From Escherichia phage HeidiAbel_Bas97, in the sequence record PQ850606.1: a DNA stretch of 41,040 nucleotides. One strand, 5' to 3'. The position numbers were made by a program, and so were the translations under genes. How positions within the stretch are numbered: the stretch's first letter is position 1; every line of letters starts with the position of its first letter. This document shows, piece by piece, positions 526 through 39,267 of this stretch. Under the pieces are notes generated by a model, which ran no database searches, was not told the DNA's origin, and worked only from the letters and a program-made list of their open reading frames with translations.

Positions 526-2533
526 CCCGTTTGCCAACATTGAAGGCATTGACCAGGCCATCCGGCGCGCACAACAACAATTGTTGCCGCCGCCAGACAT
601 GAAGCCATCAGAGTGGGCGCAGGCCAATATCCGCATTCCGTCTGGCAACGCCGTGCCAGGACCGCTGCGCCTGGATAACGCGCCATACCAGCGCGAACCA
701 ATGGACATGCTGGTTGACCCGGATTGCTACCGCGTAACGCTGATGTGGGGCGCGCAGGTGGGCAAAACGATGCTGGCACTGTGCGTGCAGGCGTACAGCG
801 TAGCAGCGGAACCGCGCAGCCAGATGATGATGCAGCCAAGCCAGGATGACTTGCGCACCTGGCTGGAAACGAAATTCAACCCGCTGGCGGAAGAATGCGC
901 GCCGGTAAACAACGCCATTGCGAAGCCGCGAGGCCGCGATGGGGTGAACAACCAGAAAATGAAATCATACCCTGGCGGGTTCCTGATGTTCGCCTGGTCC
1001 GGTTCACCAAAGACCATGCGCGGGCGTTCAGCGCCGCTGATTGTATGTGACGAGGTAGACGGATATGAACGAACCAGCGAAGGGCACCCGGTTGGCCTGC
1101 TGTGGCAGCGTTCTGCCACCTTCGGTGACCAGCGGTTTTTGCTGGAAATCAGCACCCCTACCCTTAAGGGTGAATCGTACATCGAAAAAGCGTATGAAAT
1201 GGGCGACCAGCGGCACTTCTTTGTTTGCTGCCCGCACTGTGACGATCACGTTACGCTTGAATGGGAAAACATCAAATGGGATGGCCAGCGCGAAACCGAC
1301 GCGGAAACGCTGGCGGCCATCGAAGAACAGAAGCCGGAAACCGCGCACCTGTATTGCCCATCGTGCGGCGCGCAGTGGAATGACGGCGAACGGATAGCGG
1401 CTATCCGCCAGGCCGAAGGAAAGGGCGCAGGCTGGAAGGCATCCAGGCCGTTTGAAGGGCACGCCAGCTACCACCTGAACGAACTATACAGCACATTCCG
1501 TAAAGTGCCGGCCATCGTGCGTGACTACCTGGACAAGCTGAAAACCGACGACTTGCAAACCTTCACCAACGTGAGCCTGGCGCGCACCTGGGAAGAAGAA
1601 GGCGACAAGGTTGACCCGGATTCACTGATGGCGCGCCGCGAGGAATACGCAGCGCCGGTGCCTGCTGGTGGGCTGTATATCACCGCAGGCATAGACATGC
1701 AGGTTGACCGCCTGGAATGTGAGGTGGTGGCCTGGGGCGTGGGTGAAGAATCCTGGTCATTGGGTTACCACGTCCTGTGGGGCGACCCGCTGACGCCTGA
1801 CCCCTGGGATGCGCTGGATGACCTGCTGGCGGAAACCTACCAGCACGAAACCGGGGCCATCATGCCGATCATGGCCGCCTGCCTCGATACCGGGGGCACC
1901 AGCGGTTACACACAGGCCGCCTACGAATACGCCAGGGGGCGCACAGGCCGCCGCCTGTTTGCCATCAAAGGCGTGGGCGGATGGGGCCGCCCTATCGTGG
2001 AGAAGCCGCAGCGCAAGCAATCCGGGAAGGATGCCCGAAAGGTGGATTTATTCCTGGTGGGCACCGATGAAGCCAAGCTGATAACCGCAAGGCGTTTAAA
2101 CAAGACGGCACCGGGGCCGGGTTATTGCCACTTCCCTGCCGACCGCGATGAAGAATGGTTCAAGCAAATCACCGCTGAAAAGCTGACCATGCGTTACGTG
2201 AAGGGGCAGCCAATCCGCGAGTGGCGGAAACCGGACAAGGCGCGCAACGAAGCACTGGACTGCCGCAACTATGCGCTGGCCGCGCTGAAAATCATGCAGC
2301 CGTCATTCCGCCGCCTGGCTGAAAGGTTTGGTGTAGCCAACGACAACGCGCCACCGGAACGACGCAAGCGGCTGCCGAACGTAAAACCCATCGTGAAACC
2401 GGTGGAAGTGCCGCAACCGGCCAATGACAAACCCCAAGAAGAAGAAAAACAGCAAGTCACAGAGACTAAGCCCATTAAACGTTCCGCCAGGGCATCCAAA
2501 CGCCGTGGCGGTGGATGGGTTAGCCGCTGGTGA
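485..2533 (+). CDS. Terminase large subunit (lambda gpA-like)
   Basis: 682 aa; C-terminal region (KPDKARNEALDCRNYALAALKI) and overall length and order match the lambda gpA family; overlaps the small subunit gene. Confidence 0.9.
   Translation: MAMTKGATVTAKNNPFANIEGIDQAIRRAQQQLLPPPDMKPSEWAQANIRIPSGNAVPGPLRLDNAPYQREPMDMLVDPDCYRVTLMWGAQVGKTMLALCVQAYSVAAEPRSQMMMQPSQDDLRTWLETKFNPLAEECAPVNNAIAKPRGRDGVNNQKMKSYPGGFLMFAWSGSPKTMRGRSAPLIVCDEVDGYERTSEGHPVGLLWQRSATFGDQRFLLEISTPTLKGESYIEKAYEMGDQRHFFVCCPHCDDHVTLEWENIKWDGQRETDAETLAAIEEQKPETAHLYCPSCGAQWNDGERIAAIRQAEGKGAGWKASRPFEGHASYHLNELYSTFRKVPAIVRDYLDKLKTDDLQTFTNVSLARTWEEEGDKVDPDSLMARREEYAAPVPAGGLYITAGIDMQVDRLECEVVAWGVGEESWSLGYHVLWGDPLTPDPWDALDDLLAETYQHETGAIMPIMAACLDTGGTSGYTQAAYEYARGRTGRRLFAIKGVGGWGRPIVEKPQRKQSGKDARKVDLFLVGTDEAKLITARRLNKTAPGPGYCHFPADRDEEWFKQITAEKLTMRYVKGQPIREWRKPDKARNEALDCRNYALAALKIMQPSFRRLAERFGVANDNAPPERRKRLPNVKPIVKPVEVPQPANDKPQEEEKQQVTETKPIKRSARASKRRGGGWVSRW
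2426..2442 (+). promoter_or_regulatory. Conserved 17-mer GACAAACCCCAAGAAGA, copy 1
   Basis: Exact 17-nt match to three other sites; about 95 nt upstream of the ORF at 2540. Confidence 0.45.
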
Positions 2534-2539
2534 CAAATA

Positions 2540-3079
2540 GTGAAATGCAGCCAATTACCGCAGAAAATTACAGCCGGGTTGACGTTTGAATCACGTCTGA
2601 ACCTGCCAGACTACCCGGCTACTGAATGGGCTGTGCGGCTGCTGCTGCGCGGCCCGCAATCAATCGACGTTCCAGCAGTAGTTGACGGCAAAACCAGCGT
2701 CATCCGCGCCGCTGCTGGCGTTACTGGCACCTGGCCTGCTGGTGAATACTGGTATTCAATCCGCGCAACACGCGGTTCTGACGTTGTGGAAGTGGGCAGC
2801 GGCCAAATCACCATCATGCCGGACCTGGCAGCCGCCGAAGCTGGTTACACCGCAAAAACACACGCGCAACGCACCCTGGAAGCTATTGAAGCCGTCATAG
2901 AAAAGCGCGCGTCAATGGACCAGGAACGCTACCGCATCAATAACCGCGAGTTATACCGCACCCCGATTGCCGATCTGCTGAAACTGCGCGACCTGTACCG
3001 CCTGGAAGTAGCACGCGAACAGCAGGCACAGCGCGGATGCAATCCATTCGGGCGCAAAGTACGGGTGAGCCTTCGCTAA
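2540..3079 (+). CDS. Putative head-tail joining protein (gpW-like C-terminal region); GTG start, exact start uncertain
   Basis: Lies between terminase and portal as lambda W does; C-terminus is basic and Arg-rich like gpW; stop overlaps the portal ATG (TAATG). Confidence 0.4.
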   Translation: MKCSQLPQKITAGLTFESRLNLPDYPATEWAVRLLLRGPQSIDVPAVVDGKTSVIRAAAGVTGTWPAGEYWYSIRATRGSDVVEVGSGQITIMPDLAAAEAGYTAKTHAQRTLEAIEAVIEKRASMDQERYRINNRELYRTPIADLLKLRDLYRLEVAREQQAQRGCNPFGRKVRVSLR

Positions 3080-4635
3080 TGAAACTGTGGCCATTTACCA
3101 GAAATAAGCCTGCCGAACAGGCACAACAGCCGCGCACGCGGCGTTTACCGCTTAACCGCCTGGCTTCCCGCATGTTTACGGGTGCCAGTGTTGACCGGTT
3201 GGGCACCGCGTGGGGCACGCAGCCGCTGACGGCTGACGAGGTAATCAACAAAAATCAACGCATCCTGGTGGCCCGTTCCCGCGAACAGGCCGCCAATAAC
3301 GACTATGCCAAAAAATTCCTGCGCCTGTGCCGCAACAATATTGTTGGGCCAAAAGGCGTTCTGTTGCAGGCCAAAAGCACTGACAACACCGGAAAACTGG
3401 ACACCCTGGCCAACGAAGCCATTGAAACTGCCTTCGATAAGTGGGGGCACAAGTCAAACTGCGACGTGACCGGGAAGTTATCCTGGCGCGCCATCCAGGC
3501 TGCGTGCATCAACAGCGCGGCCAAAGATGGTGAATTCTTCGTGCGCCTGGTGTTCGGTGCCGATGCAGGGCCGTGGGGCTTTGCGCTGCAACTGCTGGAC
3601 CCGCAACGCTGCCCTGTAGACATGGTTGAAGATCGTCTGAATAACGGAAATTTCATTCGCCAGGGCATCGAGTTTAACCGCTACGGGCGGCCTGTTGCGT
3701 ACTATTTCAGCACGGTTGATGAATCCGATGATAATTACCGTTGGTCCGGGCGTGATTTCGTGCGCATTCCCGCTGATGAAATCCTTCACGGCTTCCTGGA
3801 TGACATGGTGGGGCAGAAACGCGGCCTGCCGTGGATGGCCACCAGCCTGTTTCGTATGCGCCACCTGGGTGGCATGGAAGAAGCCGCGCTGGTCAACGCG
3901 CGAGCCGGTGCCAACAAAATGGGTTTCATCGAATGGGATGAAAATTCCGCTGGTCCTGAGTTTGAAGATGATGACGAACTGATCATTGACAGTGAACCGG
4001 GTGAATTCCAGGTGCTGCCACAGGGCGCACGCGTCAAAGACTGGTCGCCACAGTACCCCAACGGCGAATTTGCCGTGTTCACCAAACAAATGCTGCGCGG
4101 CATGGCATCGGGTATGGGCGTTCCGTATAATGACCTTGCCAGCGACCTGGAAGGCGTCAATTTCAGTTCAATCCGCCAGGGAACGCTAGACAGCCGCGAA
4201 AACTGGAAAGAATTGCAGGAATGGTTGATTGAAAACCTGCATCAACCCGTTTTTGAAGCATGGTTGCCGCGTGCCCTGCTTGCTGGTCGCATCACCGTTA
4301 AAGGCCGCAGCCTGAAACCGGAACGCATCGACCGCTACAGCGATATTGAATGGCAGCCACGCCGTTGGGCCTGGATTGACCCGTCATCTGACGTGGCAGC
4401 CGCTGAACGGTCCAAAAACAACATGCTGCAATCGCCTGGCCGCATCATCCGTGAAGGTGGCAGCGACCCTGACACCGTTTGGAAGGAAACCGCCAGCGAC
4501 GTGGCGCGCATGATTGAGGCGTACACGCAGCACGGCATCAGCCGCGAAATGGCGGAAAAACTGGTCATGCAAAGCATGGGCATGGACAAACAACTGTTAA
4601 TGGGGCAGCAAAATGCAGAAAAACCCGCTGAATAG
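3079..4635 (+). CDS. Portal protein (lambda gpB-like)
   Basis: Recalled similarity to lambda gpB; ATG at 3079 overlaps the upstream stop; the track ORF starts 42 nt further upstream in the same frame. Confidence 0.85.
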   Translation: MKLWPFTRNKPAEQAQQPRTRRLPLNRLASRMFTGASVDRLGTAWGTQPLTADEVINKNQRILVARSREQAANNDYAKKFLRLCRNNIVGPKGVLLQAKSTDNTGKLDTLANEAIETAFDKWGHKSNCDVTGKLSWRAIQAACINSAAKDGEFFVRLVFGADAGPWGFALQLLDPQRCPVDMVEDRLNNGNFIRQGIEFNRYGRPVAYYFSTVDESDDNYRWSGRDFVRIPADEILHGFLDDMVGQKRGLPWMATSLFRMRHLGGMEEAALVNARAGANKMGFIEWDENSAGPEFEDDDELIIDSEPGEFQVLPQGARVKDWSPQYPNGEFAVFTKQMLRGMASGMGVPYNDLASDLEGVNFSSIRQGTLDSRENWKELQEWLIENLHQPVFEAWLPRALLAGRITVKGRSLKPERIDRYSDIEWQPRRWAWIDPSSDVAAAERSKNNMLQSPGRIIREGGSDPDTVWKETASDVARMIEAYTQHGISREMAEKLVMQSMGMDKQLLMGQQNAEKPAE

Positions 4636-6661
4636 CATCATTGGGGCCGAATTTACCCGCAAATCTGACAGCAAAACGCTGCCTGATTTCAACAAAGGCG
4701 GGCTGGTGCGCACTATGGAAGTGCGCAAGTTTGACACCGAAAAACGCACCGTAGAACTGGCTTTTTCATCCGAAATCGAGGTTGAACGCTGGTACGGTAT
4801 CGAAATTCTGGACCATTCGCCGGAAAGCGTGCGCCTGGACCGTCTGCGTGACGGTGGGGCGCTGCTGGTTGACCACGATTGGACTGACCAGGTGGGCGTT
4901 GTTGAATCCGTCAGCATTGACGCTGACCGCCGGGGGCGGGCCGTGGTGCGCTTTGGCCGAAGTGCACGCGCTGACGAGATTTTCCAGGACATCGTTGACG
5001 GCATTCGCAAGCATGTTTCCGTGGGCTACCGCGTGTTAGCGGCCAAGCTACAGGAAACGCGTGACGAGTGGCAGGATGTCTATCGCATCACTGAATGGGA
5101 ACCTTACGAAATTTCAATTGTGAGTGTTCCCGCTGACGCCAGCGTTGGCGTTGGGCGTGCGTTTGACAAACCCCAAGAAGAACAACGCGGCAGCAAATCC
5201 GATACTGCGGGCACCGTAGAGGTTCCAGCACCAACAAATATTGCATCTGAGGGCATTAGAATGGAAAAAATTCTGCGCGACGCAGCCGGTAACCTGGTGC
5301 GCGCAATGGTAGACGAAAAAGGCAACATCACGCAGGTTCTGGAAATGCTGGAACGTGCTGGCGATGATGCGCGCAACGCTGAACAGCGTGGCCGTGAAGC
5401 CGAAAAGGCGCGTGTTCGTTCCATCACTGAAATGGGCGAGAAGTACAACGCACGTGACCTGGCTTTGAAAGCTATTGGCGAAGGCACCACCGCCGAAGAT
5501 TTCCAGCGTTCCTTGCTGGACCACCTGAACAAGCCGAAAGACCCGGCACAACCGGCTGATGGCACCCGTTCCGGCAGCAAGCCGCTGTCAGAAATGCCGT
5601 CCAGCGTGATTGGTATGTCTGACAAAGACATCCGCCGCTATAGCATTTTCAACGTGGTTCGCGCGCTGGCTAACCCGAACGATGCAGCCGCACAGCGTGC
5701 CGCAGCGTTTGAAATCGAATGCAGCCACGCAGCGCAACAGCAGTATGGCCGCAGTGCAAAAGGCATCCTGATCCCCGACGATGTTCTGCGCGCATTCAAC
5801 GCTGGTGGCGCACCGAACACCCCGGCAGGTGCACAGACCGGTTCCAACCTGGTTGGCACTGACTTTATGGCCAGTTCGTTCATCGACCTGCTGCGCCCGC
5901 GTACCACCATCATGCGCCTGGCGCGTACTATGGGCGGCCTGGTTGGTAACGTTGAAATTCCGAAACAGACTGGCGGCGCTACTGCCTACTGGATTGGTGA
6001 AGGTGATGACGCAACCGAAACCACGCCGACCATCGGCCAGCTTGGTTTGTCACCGAAAACCGTTGCGGCTTACACCGACATTACCCGCCGCCTGCTGATG
6101 CAATCCACCCCTGACGCGGAAGCTATCGTGCGCGGTGACCTGGTGGCAGCTATCGCGCAGGCGATTGATTACGCTGGTTACTACGGCACCGGCACCAGCA
6201 ACCAGCCGCTGGGCCTGGCGAACTACACCGGCATTAATGCGGTAGACTTCGCAGCAGACAACCCGACTTATGCGGAACTGGTGCAGATGGAAACCGAAAT
6301 TGCGGCAGACAACGCAGACGTGAACAACATGGCGTATGTGTTGAACGCGCGTGGCCGTGGTGCAGCGAAAACCACGCCGAAGTTTGCCAGCGGTTCTTCC
6401 GTTGCTGACGCTGGCGTGATTTGGGAGCCGGGCAACACCCTGAACGGTTACCGCGCCGAAGTTACCAACCAGGTGCAGGATGGTGACGTGTTCTTTGGCA
6501 ACTTCGCTGACCTGGTGGTTGGTATGTGGGGCGGCCTGGACATGACGGTTGACCCGTACAGCCTGAGCAAATCCGGCGGCCTGCGCATCGTGGTGTTCCA
6601 GGACGTGGATTTTGCGGTGCGCCGCGTTGAATCCTTCGCGCTTGGCCGCAACGCAGAATAA
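4613..6661 (+). CDS. Prohead protease, scaffold (delta-like) and major capsid protein (HK97 fold) in one ORF
   Basis: N-terminal ~190 aa resemble an HK97-type prohead protease; central charged coiled-coil segment; C-terminal ~400 aa resemble an HK97-fold capsid protein; internal in-frame ATG at 5261 with a GAGGG RBS. Confidence 0.75.
   Translation: MQKNPLNSIIGAEFTRKSDSKTLPDFNKGGLVRTMEVRKFDTEKRTVELAFSSEIEVERWYGIEILDHSPESVRLDRLRDGGALLVDHDWTDQVGVVESVSIDADRRGRAVVRFGRSARADEIFQDIVDGIRKHVSVGYRVLAAKLQETRDEWQDVYRITEWEPYEISIVSVPADASVGVGRAFDKPQEEQRGSKSDTAGTVEVPAPTNIASEGIRMEKILRDAAGNLVRAMVDEKGNITQVLEMLERAGDDARNAEQRGREAEKARVRSITEMGEKYNARDLALKAIGEGTTAEDFQRSLLDHLNKPKDPAQPADGTRSGSKPLSEMPSSVIGMSDKDIRRYSIFNVVRALANPNDAAAQRAAAFEIECSHAAQQQYGRSAKGILIPDDVLRAFNAGGAPNTPAGAQTGSNLVGTDFMASSFIDLLRPRTTIMRLARTMGGLVGNVEIPKQTGGATAYWIGEGDDATETTPTIGQLGLSPKTVAAYTDITRRLLMQSTPDAEAIVRGDLVAAIAQAIDYAGYYGTGTSNQPLGLANYTGINAVDFAADNPTYAELVQMETEIAADNADVNNMAYVLNARGRGAAKTTPKFASGSSVADAGVIWEPGNTLNGYRAEVTNQVQDGDVFFGNFADLVVGMWGGLDMTVDPYSLSKSGGLRIVVFQDVDFAVRRVESFALGRNAE
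5165..5181 (+). promoter_or_regulatory. Conserved 17-mer GACAAACCCCAAGAAGA, copy 2
   Basis: Exact match; 80 nt upstream of the internal in-frame ATG at 5261. Confidence 0.45.
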
Positions 6662-6666
6662 CGATC

Positions 6667-6694
6667 ATGGCCGCTTCGGCGGCCATAGTCTTTT
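6667..6694 (+). terminator. Terminator/attenuator hairpin after the major capsid gene
   Basis: Perfect palindrome ATGGCCGC-TTCG-GCGGCCAT then a short T tract (TCTTTTCC). Confidence 0.5.
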
Positions 6695-6712
6695 CCGACA
6701 GGAGACAGTTTT

Positions 6713-7015
6713 ATGTCTGGTACTTACGTACTGAAATTGACTTCCGCCATTGCTATCAGCGGCGAAGTCATGAAAGCGGGTTCACTGGTTGAGGTTTCAG
6801 AGCTTGAGGCCAAAAATCTGTTGTCGCGCGGCAAGGCCGAGATGCACGACGAACAACCGGCGCGTGATGACGATGTTGAAATCACGAAAATGAACAAAGA
6901 TCAGCTTATCGCCATTGCAGAACAGATGGAAATTGAAGGCGCGGACAAAATGACCAAAGCGCAGTTGATTGAAGCCATCGAAGCCGCAGGCGAAACCAAA
7001 GAGGGTGACGAATAA
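6713..7015 (+). CDS. Small head-associated protein with Rho-N/HeH-like C-terminal motif
   Basis: AGGAGA RBS; follows the terminator hairpin after the capsid gene; C-terminus KMNKDQLIAIAEQMEIEGADKMTKAQLIEAIEAA resembles a Rho-N/SAP-type helix-extension-helix. Confidence 0.45.
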   Translation: MSGTYVLKLTSAIAISGEVMKAGSLVEVSELEAKNLLSRGKAEMHDEQPARDDDVEITKMNKDQLIAIAEQMEIEGADKMTKAQLIEAIEAAGETKEGDE

Positions 7016-9463: not shown

Positions 9464-9466
9464 CCT

Positions 9467-9483
9467 GACAAACCCCAAGAAGA
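9467..9483 (+). promoter_or_regulatory. Conserved 17-mer GACAAACCCCAAGAAGA, copy 3
   Basis: Exact match in the V-W intergenic gap, 34 nt upstream of the W ATG. Confidence 0.45.
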
Positions 9484-9516
9484 TAAACCACCTACCATGC
9501 GGGCATCATTGCCCGC

Positions 9517-9855
9517 ATGAAAGGTACAAACGCGGCTACAGGCGCGCCGCTGGATGGCATGGACCATCTGCGCCAATCCATAAGAGACATACTCACGACG
9601 CCAATTGGCACGCGGGTGATGCGCCGCGACTACGGCAGCCGCCTGCCCTACCTGGTTGACGCGCCGATGAACCGCAGCACGCTGTTGGACCTGTACGCAG
9701 CGACGGCGGAAGCGTTGGAAACCTGGGAACCACGCATCAGCGTGCAGCAGGTGACAGCCACCGCAGCCGAACCAGGGCGCGTGGAATTGTCGATTTCTGG
9801 CGAATACCTGCCAGACGGCAAACCGATAACTATTGATGGCATAGTGGTGACCTAA
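9517..9855 (+). CDS. W: Baseplate protein W (GPW/gp25 family)
   Basis: 112 aa with the gpW/gp25 signature (MDHLRQSIRDILTTPIGTRVMRRDYGSRLPYLVD). Confidence 0.85.
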   Translation: MKGTNAATGAPLDGMDHLRQSIRDILTTPIGTRVMRRDYGSRLPYLVDAPMNRSTLLDLYAATAEALETWEPRISVQQVTATAAEPGRVELSISGEYLPDGKPITIDGIVVT

Positions 9856-13874: not shown

Positions 13875-13896
13875 CCCCTGGTAACTTGTCGCCTTT

Positions 13897-13920
13897 GCCC
13901 GCATCACGCGGGCTTTTTTA
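13897..13920 (+). terminator. Rho-independent terminator after the tail collar gene
   Basis: GCCCGC-ATCAC-GCGGGC then TTTTTTA. Confidence 0.6.
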
Positions 13921-13922
13921 CG

Positions 13923-13939
13923 GACAAACCCCAAGAAGA
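13923..13939 (+). promoter_or_regulatory. Conserved 17-mer GACAAACCCCAAGAAGA, copy 4
   Basis: Exact match just after the terminator at 13897-13920, 73 nt upstream of the sheath ATG. Confidence 0.45.
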
Positions 13940-14011
13940 AGCCACGCACGGTTCCTGCGACCATCACACTGCGAATTTTCACTGTGTGCACAGTCAATAG
14001 GAAACCGAATA

Positions 14012-15439
14012 ATGGCAGGTACTGATTTTTTACATGGCGTGGAGGTGCTGGAAATTGATTCCGGTTCACGCGTCATTCAAACCGTTAAATCGAGCGTCAT
14101 CGGTATTGTTGGCACCGCGCCAAATGCTGACCCTGACGCATTCCCGCTAAACACCCCAACCCTGATTGCAGGCAGCCAGCGCGAAGCGGCCAAACTGGAC
14201 ATGCTTGGCACCGGTGAAGGCACCCTGCCCAAAGCACTGGATGCCATCCTGGACCAGATCGGCGCTGTGGTCATCGTTGTGCGTGTTGAAGAAGGCGAAT
14301 CCGACACCGCAACGCTGGCCAACATTATGGGCGGCGTAAACGCATCAACCGGCAAGTATGAAGGCGTTCACGCACTGCTTGGCGCTGAATCCGTTGTGGG
14401 CTACTCGCCGCGTATTCTGTGCGTGCCTGGCTTCACGCATACCCGCGTTCAGGATGGCGTCACAGCTATCTCCATCGGCAACGGCGGCAGCGGCTACACC
14501 GAAGCGCCTACAATCACCCTGGCTGGTGGCGGTGGCGGTTCTGGTGCAACTGCGCAAGCAACTGTGGTTGGCGGCGTCATCACCAAAATCACCGTCACCA
14601 ACGCGGGTATGGGCTACACCGAAGCGCCAACCGTTACCATCACTGGCGGCAACGGCACCGGCGCAACTGCAACCGCATCCGTTGGCATCGCAGCCAATGC
14701 CGTGGTTTCTGAACTGCTTGGCATCGCCAACCGCCTGCGTGCTGTCATCATCGCTGACGGTCCAAACACCAACGACGCTGACGCCATCGCGTACCGCAAA
14801 GACTTTGGCAGCAAGCGCGTTTATGTGGTTGACCCAAAAGTGCTGGTGCTTGACGAAGACGGCACCACAATTACTGATTGGGCATCGCCGCGCGTGGCTG
14901 GCCTAATTGCCCGCATCGACAACGAGCGCGGTTTCTGGTGGTCACCGTCAAACCAGGAAATCTATGGCATCCAGGGCACAGCCCGAACCATTGATTTCAC
15001 CCTGGGTGACACGTCCAGCCGTGCAAACCTGCTGAACGAAAACGAAGTCACCACCATCATTCGCCAGGACGGTTTTCGCCTGTGGGGCAACCGCACCACT
15101 TCCAGCGATCCGAAATGGGCGTTTCTGTGCGTTGTTCGCACGGCTGACATCATCAATGACAGCCTGCTGCGTGCACACCTGTGGGCCGTAGACCGTGGCA
15201 TCACCAAACAATACGTCAATGACGTGATTGAAGGCGTGAACGCGTACCTGCGTAACCTGGTGAGCCTGGGCGCAATTCTTGGCGGCACGTGTTGGGCTGA
15301 CCCTGACTTAAATACTGCTGACCAAATTGCTGACGGTAAGGTATACTTTGATTTTGATTTCACGCCTGTTTATCCGGCTGAACACATTATCTTCCGCAGC
15401 CAATTGACCAACGATTATATTAGTGAGGTATTCGAATAA
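14012..15439 (+). CDS. FI: Tail sheath protein (P2 FI-like) carrying an internal 40-aa tandem duplication
   Basis: ATG at 14012 with AGGAAA RBS; sheath-like N-terminus ([12 protein letters not shown]) and C-terminus; the track ORF 5' extension is rejected. Confidence 0.9.
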
Positions 15440-22818: not shown

Positions 22819-22895
22819 TGGCGACCCCTACAGGAATCGAACCTGTAACCTACAGCTTAGAAGGCTGTCGCTCTATCCGGTTGAGCTAAGGGGCC
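22819..22895 (-). tRNA. tRNA-Arg (anticodon UCU), 77 nt with encoded CCA
   Basis: Reverse complement folds by hand into a full cloverleaf: 7-bp acceptor stem with one G-U pair, D arm, anticodon loop CUUCUAA, T-loop TTCGATT, discriminator G and CCA. Confidence 0.85.
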
Positions 22896-22939
22896 GTGTA
22901 ATTATGTGGCGTTATTCGCGGTTAAGGTTTTGCACTACC

Positions 22940-22963
22940 ATACCCTAAACCATACCCTAAACC
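22940..22963 (+). repeat. Tandem direct repeat ATACCCTAAACC x2 (putative integrase arm-type sites)
   Basis: Exact 12-bp unit repeated in tandem between the tRNA and int; a related pair lies at 23164-23187. Confidence 0.45.
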
Positions 22964-23163
22964 GTTTTGCCTATCGGCTAAGTGCTTGTAATTCCTCGCT
23001 TATTAACACTGTTGCATTCCGCTTAGAAGGCGGTTACAGTGGCATAATCGCAAGTCATCACAAATCACGCGAACAGCCACTAAGCCACTGCGTTTAAACA
23101 TCATTCTGCATCATCCCCGGCTAAGTGTTTGCGTTCAGATCCTGTTTTGACTTGTGCCGAACC

Positions 23164-23187
23164 GTACCCTAAACCGTACCCAAAAAG
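23164..23187 (+). repeat. Direct repeat GTACCCTAAACC / GTACCCAAAAAG (putative arm-type sites)
   Basis: Same TACCCTAAACC core as 22940-22963, 13 bp upstream of the int start. Confidence 0.4.
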
Positions 23188-38832: not shown

Positions 38833-39267
38833 ATGGAATTACCGCGCACTGTGCAGGAAATAGCTGACGTTATTGGCCGTGAACGTGCGCTTTTTCTTAT
38901 CGGACAACTGCCAAAACTGTGGGTGCCATCGCAGCAGTACCACAAAGTCATCCTGTATGTACCAAAGCGGATTCGACCCAATGACCCGCTGGTGCAAATC
39001 CTGGGGTGGCAGGATGCCAGTAAGATGGTGCAGCACTTCGGGGGTGAAATGCTTCACCCTGCTAACTGTGAATACATTTACCGCCATTTCATTCACCGCA
39101 GCATTAAGCGGATGCACAGCGAAGGAATGGACGCAAAAGCCATTGCGGAACTGCTGGACGTGTCAGAACGCACCGTTAAGCGCCATTGCACTGACAAACC
39201 CCACAAAGACACATCACCTGCAAATGATAACACTCCGCAACGACTACTAACGGCTATGGGGCAATGA
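38833..39267 (+). CDS. Mor/C-family transcription activator (putative late-gene activator)
   Basis: C-terminal HTH (GMDAKAIAELLDVSERTVKRH) and upstream GGEMLHP segment resemble Mu Mor; sits just before the lysis cassette where lambdoid Q sits. Confidence 0.5.
   Translation: MELPRTVQEIADVIGRERALFLIGQLPKLWVPSQQYHKVILYVPKRIRPNDPLVQILGWQDASKMVQHFGGEMLHPANCEYIYRHFIHRSIKRMHSEGMDAKAIAELLDVSERTVKRHCTDKPHKDTSPANDNTPQRLLTAMGQ

What the first reader, a model, noticed from the sequence alone, without database searches (positions are those of the whole stretch)
4613..6661. Protease, scaffold and HK97-fold capsid in one reading frame, with an internal RBS and start at 5261
One 682-aa ORF combines a prohead protease domain, a coiled-coil segment and a capsid domain. 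An in-frame ATG at 5261 with a GAGGG RBS, 80 nt after a copy of the conserved 17-mer, could give a separate scaffold-capsid product, as with the nested C/Nu3 genes of lambda.
Basis: partly seen in the sequence, partly recalled or inferred. Interest (0 to 1): 0.45.

Follow-up and report, generated by a model that had tools for sequence, protein, structure and literature searches.

The report
Capsid gene nested inside protease-capsid gene
This phage makes its head protease, scaffold and shell protein from one long gene, and comparison with about 160 relatives indicates that a second promoter, ribosome-binding site and start codon hidden in the linker produce the scaffold-shell part separately, probably in larger amounts.

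Summary
ORF 4613-6661 (682 aa) joins an HK97-type prohead protease (Pfam S78), a disordered linker, a helical scaffold segment and an HK97-fold capsid domain. ATG 5261 is in frame, with GAGGG 7 nt upstream and the 17-mer ending 80 nt upstream. The window is a Jilinvirus-type myophage.

The fusion itself is already known: phrog_617, and published for the relative Murka and, with another protease type, for MD8 and Gifsy-2.

What appears undescribed is the internal expression unit.
- **Start codon.** In 157 distinct homologous genes, 126 keep an ATG at this boundary. Of these, 90% carry a Shine-Dalgarno core, although the upstream peptide is only 12% conserved. Three lineages without Met use GTG or TTG.
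- **Promoter.** The "17-mer" is part of a 19-bp element that changes from genome to genome but matches within each genome. A -10 hexamer (nAnAmT) follows exactly 18 nt later, which is the layout of an activator-dependent late promoter. One copy lies inside this gene in at least 75 genomes.

Predicted start of transcription is about 5213, giving a 48-nt leader, the ribosome-binding site, ATG 5261 and a terminator at 6667-6686. The arrangement resembles lambda C/Nu3 and, more closely, herpesvirus UL26/UL26.5. No experiment has tested it.

The parts
4613..6661 (+). Full-length ORF (682 aa): protease, linker, scaffold and major capsid protein. Its start overlaps the end of the portal gene (3037-4635) by 23 nt.
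   Evidence: full-length match to phrog_617 (E 1.8e-211)
4718..5122 (+). Prohead protease domain (aa 36-170), HK97 gp4 type (Pfam Peptidase_S78)
   Evidence: Pfam aa 84-176; folded beta-rich block at aa 36-170 in the model
5126..5260 (+). Disordered, hypervariable linker (aa 172-216) whose codons carry the promoter, leader and ribosome-binding site
   Evidence: pLDDT about 27; variable in length and sequence among relatives
5164..5182 (+). It would span about -49 to -31 and is the presumed binding site of the late activator.
   Evidence: specific to each genome, matching within a genome, at the same gene positions in 75 loci
5201..5206 (+). -10 hexamer GATACT, 18 nt after the element
   Evidence: A2 in 100% and T6 in 97% of internal copies; A2 and T6 together in 91% of 112 non-internal copies at this offset, and at most 12% at any other offset
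5213..5213 (+). Predicted transcription start (A after C, 7 nt after the -10). It gives a 48-nt leader.
   Evidence: C/A enrichment at +48/+49 of the aligned copies; inferred, not mapped
5249..5253 (+). Shine-Dalgarno sequence GAGGG, 7 nt before the ATG
5261..5263 (+). Internal in-frame start codon (Met217). Predicted product is 466 aa: scaffold plus capsid protein.
5261..5812 (+). Scaffold (delta-like) region, aa 217-400: small beta unit, long helices at 251-306, second helical block at 337-396
   Evidence: this domain occurs mostly at positions about 200-390 of 600-690-aa fused proteins
5840..6646 (+). HK97-fold major capsid protein domain (aa 410-678). The mature shell protein probably begins near aa 410.
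   Evidence: Pfam PF05065; aa 411-678 align with residues 2-265 of the 268-residue deposited capsid-protein chain of roseophage R4C, PDB 8GTA, E 3.8e-54
6667..6696 (+). Intrinsic-terminator-like hairpin (UUCG loop) with a weak T tail, directly after the ORF
   Evidence: z-score -4.35
2425..2467 (+). Sister late-promoter unit (element plus GAGACT) inside the 3' end of the large terminase gene, upstream of the W-like gene (2540), the portal gene and the protease start. It is the likely source of the long mRNA.
9466..9509 (+). Sister late-promoter unit after the baseplate-V gene. Its -10 hexamer, CATCAT at 9504-9509, lies 19 nt after the element rather than 18.
13922..13964 (+). Sister late-promoter unit (element plus GACCAT) directly after the terminator at 13897-13913 and before the sheath gene (ATG 14012)
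39192..39234 (+). Sister late-promoter unit (element with mismatches, plus AACACT) upstream of the holin gene (39272)
38833..39267 (+). Candidate late transcriptional activator (144 aa, C-terminal helix-turn-helix), presumed to recognise the 19-bp element
   Evidence: phrog_836, E 1e-30; weak HTH and sigma-70 region 4 Pfam hits; Arya gp38 is annotated as late activator. The link to the element is inferred.

Best explanation
The gene is a two-in-one head-assembly gene.

A long late mRNA, probably from the promoter unit at 2425-2467, is translated from ATG 4613. It gives a minor 682-aa protease-scaffold-capsid polyprotein.

A second late-promoter unit is written into the codons of the disordered linker. 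It consists of the 19-bp activator element (5164-5182), an 18-nt gap and the -10 hexamer GATACT (5201-5206), with a predicted transcript start near 5213. It would give a roughly 1.5-kb mRNA that ends at the hairpin at 6667-6686. Its first start site, GAGGG followed 7 nt later by ATG 5261, yields a 466-aa scaffold-capsid protein. The same site can also be used internally on the long mRNA.

The abundant short protein would build the procapsid shell. The few full-length copies would co-assemble through the shared scaffold-capsid part and so carry the protease inside. The protease would then remove itself and the scaffold, leaving a mature capsid protein that starts near aa 410.

Shown here: the ORF and its domains; family-wide conservation of the ATG (or GTG/TTG) and the ribosome-binding site; the matching element with a fixed-distance -10 hexamer; and the terminator hairpin. 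Inferred: that the promoter fires, which activator it uses, the ratio of the two proteins and the cleavage site.
For: **Internal start**
- Of 157 distinct homologous ORFs (37-99% identity), 126 have an in-frame ATG within 3 aligned residues of Met217.
- 97 of them pair it with an anti-SD duplex energy of -5 kcal/mol or better. This is the strongest such peak in the whole alignment. The figure is 75% of boundary ATGs against 19% of other internal ATGs.
- The six residues upstream take 100 different forms (12% mean identity), yet 90% carry GGAG, GAGG, AGGA or AAGG. At the conserved control Met559 the figure is 14%.
- Three E. coli and Salmonella prophage homologs without Met have TTG, GTG and GTG, each with GAGGT 7 nt upstream.
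- VP882 and R4C (35-38% identity) have AGAGGTG/ATG and GGAGGA/ATG right after the protease domain.

**Internal promoter**
- Arya and KA2-1 carry their own versions of the 17-mer at the same gene positions.
- In 75 loci a 19-mer from the linker recurs about 2.75 kb upstream, 3.5-4.7 kb downstream, or both. Copies differ by 1.05 mismatches on average within a genome, against 6.5 between the 48 variants.
- Aligned on the element, 183 copies show A at +38 in 96% and T at +42 in 93%.
- In the 112 copies outside this gene, A2 and T6 occur together in 91% at that offset, and in at most 12% at any other offset.
- The first in-frame ATG follows the predicted transcript start by 30-54 nt in most loci, median 48.
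- In the window, one copy directly follows a terminator (13897-13913) and precedes the sheath gene.

**Other support**
- A terminator-like hairpin follows the ORF.
- The fusion stays in frame in 164 of the 165 loci held at that step, so the long protein is also under selection.
- The deposited capsid-protein chain of the homolog R4C (PDB 8GTA) has 268 residues, while its gene encodes 629 aa.
Against: - There are no transcript or protein data for any member, and Jilinviruses are described as poorly characterised (PMC11990801).
- M to V or L is also a conservative amino-acid change, and only three such cases were checked. They are related to one another.
- The generic sigma-70 scan does not flag the site, because it lacks a -35 hexamer. 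Promoter activity would therefore depend on an activator whose link to the element is only inferred.
- The E. coli and Salmonella prophage lineage, VP882 and R4C show no recognisable repeated element. The internal promoter is thus not universal in the family.
- The T tail of the terminator is weak (AGTCTTTTCC).
- The structure model has low overall confidence (pLDDT 58).
Confidence: 0.75

Rival explanations
1. Internal translation start only, in the lambda C/Nu3 style. Ribosomes start at ATG 5261 on the long late mRNA. The 19-bp element with its hexamer is not a promoter here; it could be a protein-binding or RNA-level signal with another role.
For: The ATG and ribosome-binding site are more widespread than the element. 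VP882, R4C and the E. coli and Salmonella prophages have the start site without a recognisable element. Lambda shows that internal initiation alone can set the ratio (knowledge of lambda C/Nu3; Shaw and Murialdo 1980, cited in PMC8508860).
Against: An nAnnnT hexamer sits exactly 18 nt after the element in 91% of copies in unrelated coding and non-coding contexts. One copy directly follows a terminator and precedes a gene block. All copies lie on the sense strand upstream of late gene blocks, with variable distance to the next start codon (34-100 nt in the window, from the copy and start-codon coordinates). This fits a promoter better than an RNA signal.
Confidence: 0.15
2. Only the full-length polyprotein is made. 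Met217 and the purine-rich stretch are kept for protein or other reasons. If the element is a promoter, it only boosts transcription of the 3' part and of downstream genes, without a separate protein.
For: Published descriptions of relatives treat the gene as a single propeptide (Murka, PMC10892653; MD8, PMC8508860). The fusion is kept in frame throughout the family.
Against: A transcript starting near 5213 would present GAGGG followed 7 nt later by ATG as its first start site, in frame. The SD core is kept in 90% of sequences despite 12% peptide identity upstream. Substitutions of the Met codon are GTG or TTG. If all of the roughly 415 subunits of a T=7 shell carried a protease plus a 180-aa scaffold, the load inside the procapsid would be very heavy (inference).
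Confidence: 0.08
3. Chance: an ordinary internal Met with a fortuitous GAGGG, next to a repeat with no bearing on this gene.
For: About 19% of internal ATGs in these genes have a comparable anti-SD match by chance.
Against: The site is conserved in 126 of 157 diverged genes and gives the strongest peak in the alignment. The repeat is expected 0.10 times in the window and is found 5 times.
Confidence: 0.02

Closest known systems
Herpes simplex virus 1 UL26 / UL26.5 (protease-scaffold gene with a nested scaffold gene)
   Same: The shorter product is read in frame from an internal Met and shares its C-terminus with the protease fusion. Here, as in HSV-1 (my knowledge of that system; the HFTV1 preprint, cites it as a nested pair), a separate promoter appears to lie inside the longer ORF, giving 3'-coterminal mRNAs. 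The abundant short form builds the structure and the rare long form delivers the protease.
   Different: No sequence relationship was tested. The phage protease is Pfam S78. The short product here also contains the capsid protein itself. The promoter is a bacterial activator-dependent type. The phage case is prediction only.
Lambda C / Nu3 nested genes
   Same: An in-frame internal start inside the protease gene gives a scaffold that shares the protease's C-terminus. The neighbouring genes are lambda-like: GpA-type terminase, W-like gene and lambda-family portal.
   Different: From my knowledge of lambda, Nu3 is made by internal initiation on the same mRNA, with no known internal promoter, the C protease belongs to a different protease family from S78, and the capsid protein E is a separate gene.
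Tripartite capsid genes: Gifsy-2 (Effantin et al. 2010), Pseudomonas phage MD8 gp5 (PMC8508860), Xanthomonas phage Murka (PMC10892653)
   Same: Protease, scaffold and HK97-fold capsid protein in one ORF. [quoted passage not shown]
   Different: MD8 has a ClpP-like protease, and so does Gifsy-2 as I recall it. The Murka and MD8 papers treat the gene as a single product, and in the passages I retrieved from them I found no mention of an internal start or promoter in that gene. The Gifsy-2 paper could not be read.
HK97 gp4 protease plus gp5 (delta domain fused to the capsid protein)
   Same: The same protease family (S78) and the same capsid family (PF05065), with the scaffold function fused to the N-terminus of the capsid protein and removed by the protease.
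   Different: In HK97 the protease is a separate gene. Here it is fused in frame upstream, and the scaffold region is about 180-190 aa rather than 102.
Haloferax tailed virus 1 gp17 / gp17.5 (bioRxiv 10.64898/2026.09.13.751334)
   Same: A recently shown nested protease/scaffold pair, with an internal translation start found by ribosome profiling. This indicates that the scheme is widespread among tailed viruses.
   Different: It is an archaeal virus. The capsid protein is not part of the ORF. The excerpts I read describe the regulation as post-transcriptional.

Membership tests
Pfam PF04586 Peptidase_S78 (HK97 gp4-type prohead protease) | Profile match above the curated cut-off | tested here: met
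   38.6 bits against a cut-off of 21, aa 84-176
Pfam PF04586 Peptidase_S78 (HK97 gp4-type prohead protease) | Catalytic His/Ser residues present | not tested
   H68, H88 and S136 are invariant in 37 homologs, but they were not mapped onto the HK97 gp4 catalytic residues
HK97-fold major capsid protein (Pfam PF05065) | Profile match, and homology to a solved HK97-fold shell protein | tested here: met
   E 1.4e-46; PDB 8GTA E 3.8e-54 over aa 411-678; R4C MCP is described as HK97-fold (PMC10276861)
phrog_617 (fused protease-capsid 'major head protein') | Full-length match covering both halves | tested here: met
   aa 30-681 against profile positions 8-624 of 626, E 1.8e-211; the top 120 database relatives all carry both Pfam domains
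Tripartite capsid gene of Gifsy-2 / MD8 type | Protease, scaffold and capsid protein in one ORF | tested here: met
Tripartite capsid gene of Gifsy-2 / MD8 type | ClpP-like N-terminal protease | tested here: not met
   Pfam reports only Peptidase_S78 for the N-terminal part at E <= 0.01
Nested protease/scaffold genes (lambda C/Nu3 type) | In-frame internal start with a ribosome-binding site inside the protease ORF, giving a C-terminally identical shorter product | tested here: met
   Met at sequence level and by conservation. The product itself has not been observed.
Nested protease/scaffold genes (lambda C/Nu3 type) | Both polypeptides demonstrated in infected cells or proheads | not testable with these tools
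   Needs protein analysis
Nested protease/scaffold genes (lambda C/Nu3 type) | Capsid protein encoded by a separate gene | tested here: not met
   The capsid domain is part of the same ORF
Herpesvirus UL26/UL26.5-type nesting | Separate promoter inside the long ORF | tested here: inconclusive
   A promoter-like unit (matching 19-bp element, 18-nt gap, -10 hexamer) is present and conserved, but no transcript start has been mapped
Herpesvirus UL26/UL26.5-type nesting | 3'-coterminal long and short mRNAs observed | not testable with these tools
   Needs RNA mapping

The most novel reading that the evidence does not exclude
A large family of phages and prophages of Proteobacteria, from enterobacterial Jilinviruses to Pseudomonas, Burkholderia, Halomonas and roseobacter elements, has independently arrived at the herpesvirus UL26/UL26.5 solution and taken it one step further. 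A complete expression unit is encoded within the codons of a disordered linker of a protease-scaffold-capsid polyprotein: an activator-dependent late promoter, a leader, a ribosome-binding site and a start codon. The few conserved linker residues ([DE]KPQEE, xT, SE[GDE], M) would then be imprints of DNA and RNA signals rather than of protein function. The ratio of protease to shell subunit would be set by the choice of promoter.
Probability: 0.6. Interest if true: 0.7.

Novelty: new variant of a known kind. Interest (0 to 1): 0.6.

Why it matters
If every shell subunit were made as the full polyprotein, it is hard to see how one protease per capsid subunit could be tolerated inside a T=7 procapsid. 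A nested, separately transcribed scaffold-capsid gene gives a simple answer that can be tested. It would also change how these genes should be annotated, as two products rather than one "major head protein", in thousands of phage and prophage genomes. The family includes studied phages such as VP882, phiHAP-1 and R4C.

The same analysis yields a defined late-promoter architecture for this poorly characterised group: a 19-bp genome-specific element, an 18-nt gap and a -10 hexamer. That is useful for engineering these phages and for reading their late gene blocks. It is also a clear case of regulatory signals constraining the sequence of a disordered protein linker.

Tried and rejected
- **E. 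coli genomes.** A megablast of the gene against complete E. coli genomes found no match. Close relatives are free phages, and the prophage relatives are more distant.
- **Natural split versions.** I looked for a scaffold-capsid gene starting at the internal Met with a separate protease gene. The roughly 450-aa representatives I checked (P0125, P0221) sit at contig ends and are truncation artefacts, so they are not evidence.
- **Generic sigma-70 scan.** It does not report the internal unit. I had first read TTGACA at 5163-5168 as a -35 hexamer and rejected that, because no -10 follows at 16-18 nt and the other copies have TGACA or GGACA. The conserved -10 lies 18 nt after the whole 19-mer instead.
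- **RNA structure.** The predicted leader is no more structured than shuffles (z 0.25). Rfam finds nothing in the region, only a tRNA elsewhere.
- **Element as a peptide signal.** The coding copies all read [DE]KPQEE. I set this idea aside because two copies are non-coding, lying after stop codons and after a terminator.
- **Element in VP882 and R4C.** No repeated word and no convincing pattern match upstream of their internal ATG.
- **Activator family.** The candidate late activator has no Mor-family Pfam hit and no informative relative of solved structure.
- **Gifsy-2 paper.** Effantin 2010 is not held in the library, so whether it discusses internal initiation could not be checked.
- **Fold search.** Not run, because the model confidence is low (pLDDT 58).
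Full report
**What is there**

The window is a Jilinvirus-type (Iiscvirinae) myophage genome. The region is 95-97% identical to Escherichia phages vB_EcoM-ep3, ECOO78, ECO1230-10 and Alux-21 and to Salmonella phage PT1. It is 87% identical to Enterobacter phage Arya and 84.5% to Klebsiella phage KA2-1. No complete E. coli genome holds it.

ORF 4613-6661 (682 aa) lies in a lambda-like head block: GpA-type large terminase at 485-2533, a W-like head-tail joining gene at 2540-3079, and a lambda-family portal gene at 3037-4635.

Pfam finds Peptidase_S78 at aa 84-176 and Phage_capsid at aa 410-678. phrog_617 matches the protein end to end (E 1.8e-211).

An AlphaFold model has a mean pLDDT of only 58, so I use it for domain borders only. 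It shows a folded protease at aa 36-170, a disordered linker at 172-216, a small beta unit at 217-247, confident helices at 251-306, more helices at 337-396, and then the capsid domain.

**The fusion is real, conserved and already known**

The protein database search found 5,045 relatives with E <= 1e-10 among the 8,000 candidates scored. All of the best 120 carry both Pfam domains.

I fetched 160 related loci from genomes and viral contigs at 37-99% identity. In 164 of the 165 loci held at that step, one uninterrupted ORF covers protease, scaffold and capsid.

Named phages with this gene include PPpW-3, Persinger, Mano, Mica, phiRSP, the Xanthomonas FoX phages and Murka, the RcCronus group, the cyanophages S-CBS1 and S-CBS3, VP882, phiHAP-1 and R4C.

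[quoted passage not shown] MD8, and Gifsy-2 as I recall it, have the same layout with a ClpP-like protease (PMC8508860). This half of the finding is therefore not new.

**The internal start codon is conserved as a start codon**

I aligned the 157 distinct ORFs and scored every in-frame ATG for pairing with the 3' end of 16S rRNA.
- The strongest peak in the whole alignment is at the linker/scaffold boundary. 126 of 157 sequences have an ATG within 3 residues of Met217.
- 97 of 157 have both the ATG and a duplex of -5 kcal/mol or better.
- 75% of boundary ATGs pass that threshold, against 19% of the 2,393 other internal ATGs.

The six residues before this ATG occur in 100 different versions with 12% mean identity. 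Even so, 90% of the sequences have GGAG, GAGG, AGGA or AAGG at -18 to -5. At the invariant control Met559 inside the capsid domain the figure is 14%. The purine tract is thus kept at the nucleotide level, not the protein level.

Among close relatives the Met sits 1 or 2 residues before the conserved EKILRD motif. The exceptions have V or L there. The three I checked are GTG, GTG and TTG, each with GAGGT 7 nt upstream.

VP882 and R4C, at 35-38% identity, have AGAGGTG-ATG and GGAGGA-ATG (about -9.5 kcal/mol) just after the protease domain.

**The 17-mer is half of a late-promoter-like unit**

- **Same places, different sequence.** Arya has TGACACCCCGCACGAAGA at four sites: the terminase 3' end, this linker, after the baseplate-V gene and before the sheath gene. 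These match four of the window's five sites. KA2-1 has GACAAGCCGCACGAAGA.
- **Family-wide.** In 75 loci a 19-mer from the linker recurs on the same strand about 2.75 kb upstream, 3.5-4.7 kb downstream, or both. There are 48 different versions. The family pattern is GGAAAaCCCrCmAGAGGAa. Copies within a genome differ by 1.05 mismatches on average; different versions differ by 6.5.
- **A second block at fixed distance.** Aligning 183 non-identical copies on the element shows A at +38 in 96%, A at +40 in 73%, C or A at +41, and T at +42 in 93%. This is a -10 hexamer, nAnAmT, exactly 18 nt after the element, followed by C/A at +48/+49.
- **Independent of this gene.** In the 112 distinct copies that lie outside this gene, A2 and T6 occur together in 91% at that offset. 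At every other offset from 25 to 59 the figure is 12% or less.
- **Likely mechanism (inferred).** The element would span about -49 to -31. That is where an activator replacing the -35 contact would sit.
- **Candidate activator.** ORF 38833-39267 matches phrog_836, "late transcriptional activator", and has a C-terminal helix-turn-helix. Its link to the element is inferred.

**The five units in the window**

| 19-mer start | -10 hexamer | Position |
|---|---|---|
| 2425 | GAGACT | Inside the terminase 3' end, before the W-like, portal and protease genes |
| 5164 | GATACT, 5201-5206 | Inside this gene |
| 9466 | CATCAT, one base further along | After the baseplate-V gene |
| 13922 | GACCAT | Directly after terminator 13897-13913, before sheath ATG 14012 |
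| 39192 | AACACT | Before the holin gene |

**Putting it together**

Across the 75 loci with an internal element, A2 of the hexamer is present in 100% and T6 in 97%. The first in-frame ATG after the predicted transcript start lies 30-54 nt downstream in most, with a median of 48. In 92% it has an anti-SD duplex of -4 kcal/mol or better.

For the window this predicts:
- a transcript start near A5213;
- a 48-nt leader with no special structure (z 0.25);
- GAGGG, then ATG 5261;
- a 466-aa scaffold-capsid product;
- a terminator-like hairpin at 6667-6686 (z -4.35).

The few conserved linker residues are then explained as imprints of these signals: [DE]KPQEE from the element, D/N-T from the -10 hexamer, SE[GDE] from the ribosome-binding site, and M from the start codon.

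The long ORF stays in frame everywhere, so the full-length protein must also matter. The obvious role is to bring the protease into the shell through the part it shares with the short product. This is the logic of lambda C/Nu3, herpesvirus UL26/UL26.5 and the recently described HFTV1 gp17/gp17.5.

The deposited capsid-protein chain of roseophage R4C (PDB 8GTA) has 268 residues. The R4C gene encodes 629 aa, and residues 2-265 of the chain align with window aa 411-678. This supports removal of protease and scaffold, with a mature N-terminus near aa 410. I cannot tell whether the deposited chain begins at the true N-terminus.

**Limits**

- Everything about expression is inferred from sequence. 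No transcript or protein data exist for this group as far as the searchable library shows.
- The internal promoter is not universal. The E. coli and Salmonella prophage lineage, VP882 and R4C have the start site but no recognisable element, so they may rely on internal initiation alone.
- The related loci were retrieved with two conserved peptide patterns, which biases the sample towards that part of the family.

**Verdict**

- The fusion is already known.
- The conserved nested expression unit appears undescribed. It is best classed as a new variant of the known nested protease/scaffold arrangement.
- I put about 0.75 on a separately initiated scaffold-capsid product combined with an active internal promoter, and about 0.9 on a separately initiated product by either route.

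Noticed in passing
window 2425-2467, 9466-9509, 13922-13964, 39192-39234: Four further late-promoter-like units (19-bp element, gap, -10 hexamer), all on the + strand. Together with the internal one they divide the late region into blocks: lysis and terminase; W-like, portal and protease; scaffold-capsid, head completion and baseplate V; baseplate and fibres; sheath, tube and the rest of the tail.
   Followed up: partly
window 9504-9519: The unit after the baseplate-V gene predicts a transcript start at about 9516, right at ATG 9517 of the gp25/W-like baseplate gene. That mRNA would be nearly leaderless. The start codon also lies in the hairpin CATGCGGGCA-TCAT-TGCCCGCATG.
   Followed up: no
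window 13886-14014: The mechanical ORF for the tail sheath starts at TTG 13886, upstream of a terminator and the promoter unit. The real start is probably ATG 14012, which has AGGAA 8 nt upstream.
   Followed up: partly
window 2426-2442 and 5165-5181: In both coding copies the element is read in the same frame as D-K-P-Q-E-E, in the terminase C-terminal tail and in the capsid-gene linker. The two non-coding copies are also in frame with the preceding ORF. This is probably common descent of the copies. A peptide-level role seems unlikely but was not excluded.
   Followed up: partly
window 6713-7015: The 100-aa ORF directly after the capsid-gene terminator is labelled 'endonuclease VII' by PHROGs and in RefSeq relatives. 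Pfam sees only a Rho_N (SAP-like) domain and DUF7210, so the label looks doubtful. Its position suggests a head-associated protein.
   Followed up: no
window 22822-22895 (- strand) and 22936-23177: A tRNA gene lies next to three copies of an 18-nt repeat, AACC(A/G)TACCCTAAACC(A/G)T. This could be an origin, iterons or an attachment-site region.
   Followed up: no
L175 (roseophage R4C, MK882925) 2923-4812; PDB 8GTA: The R4C 'major capsid protein' gene encodes 629 aa with the same protease-scaffold-capsid layout, but the solved chain has 268 residues. The structure paper does not contain the words protease or cleavage. R4C has a strong internal GGAGGA-ATG at codon 189.
   Followed up: partly
proteins P0135, P0169, P0175, P0182, P0189: Some representatives are 830-960 aa long and carry the scaffold domain at about residues 430-650. 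This suggests still larger fusions with an extra N-terminal domain ahead of the protease.
   Followed up: no
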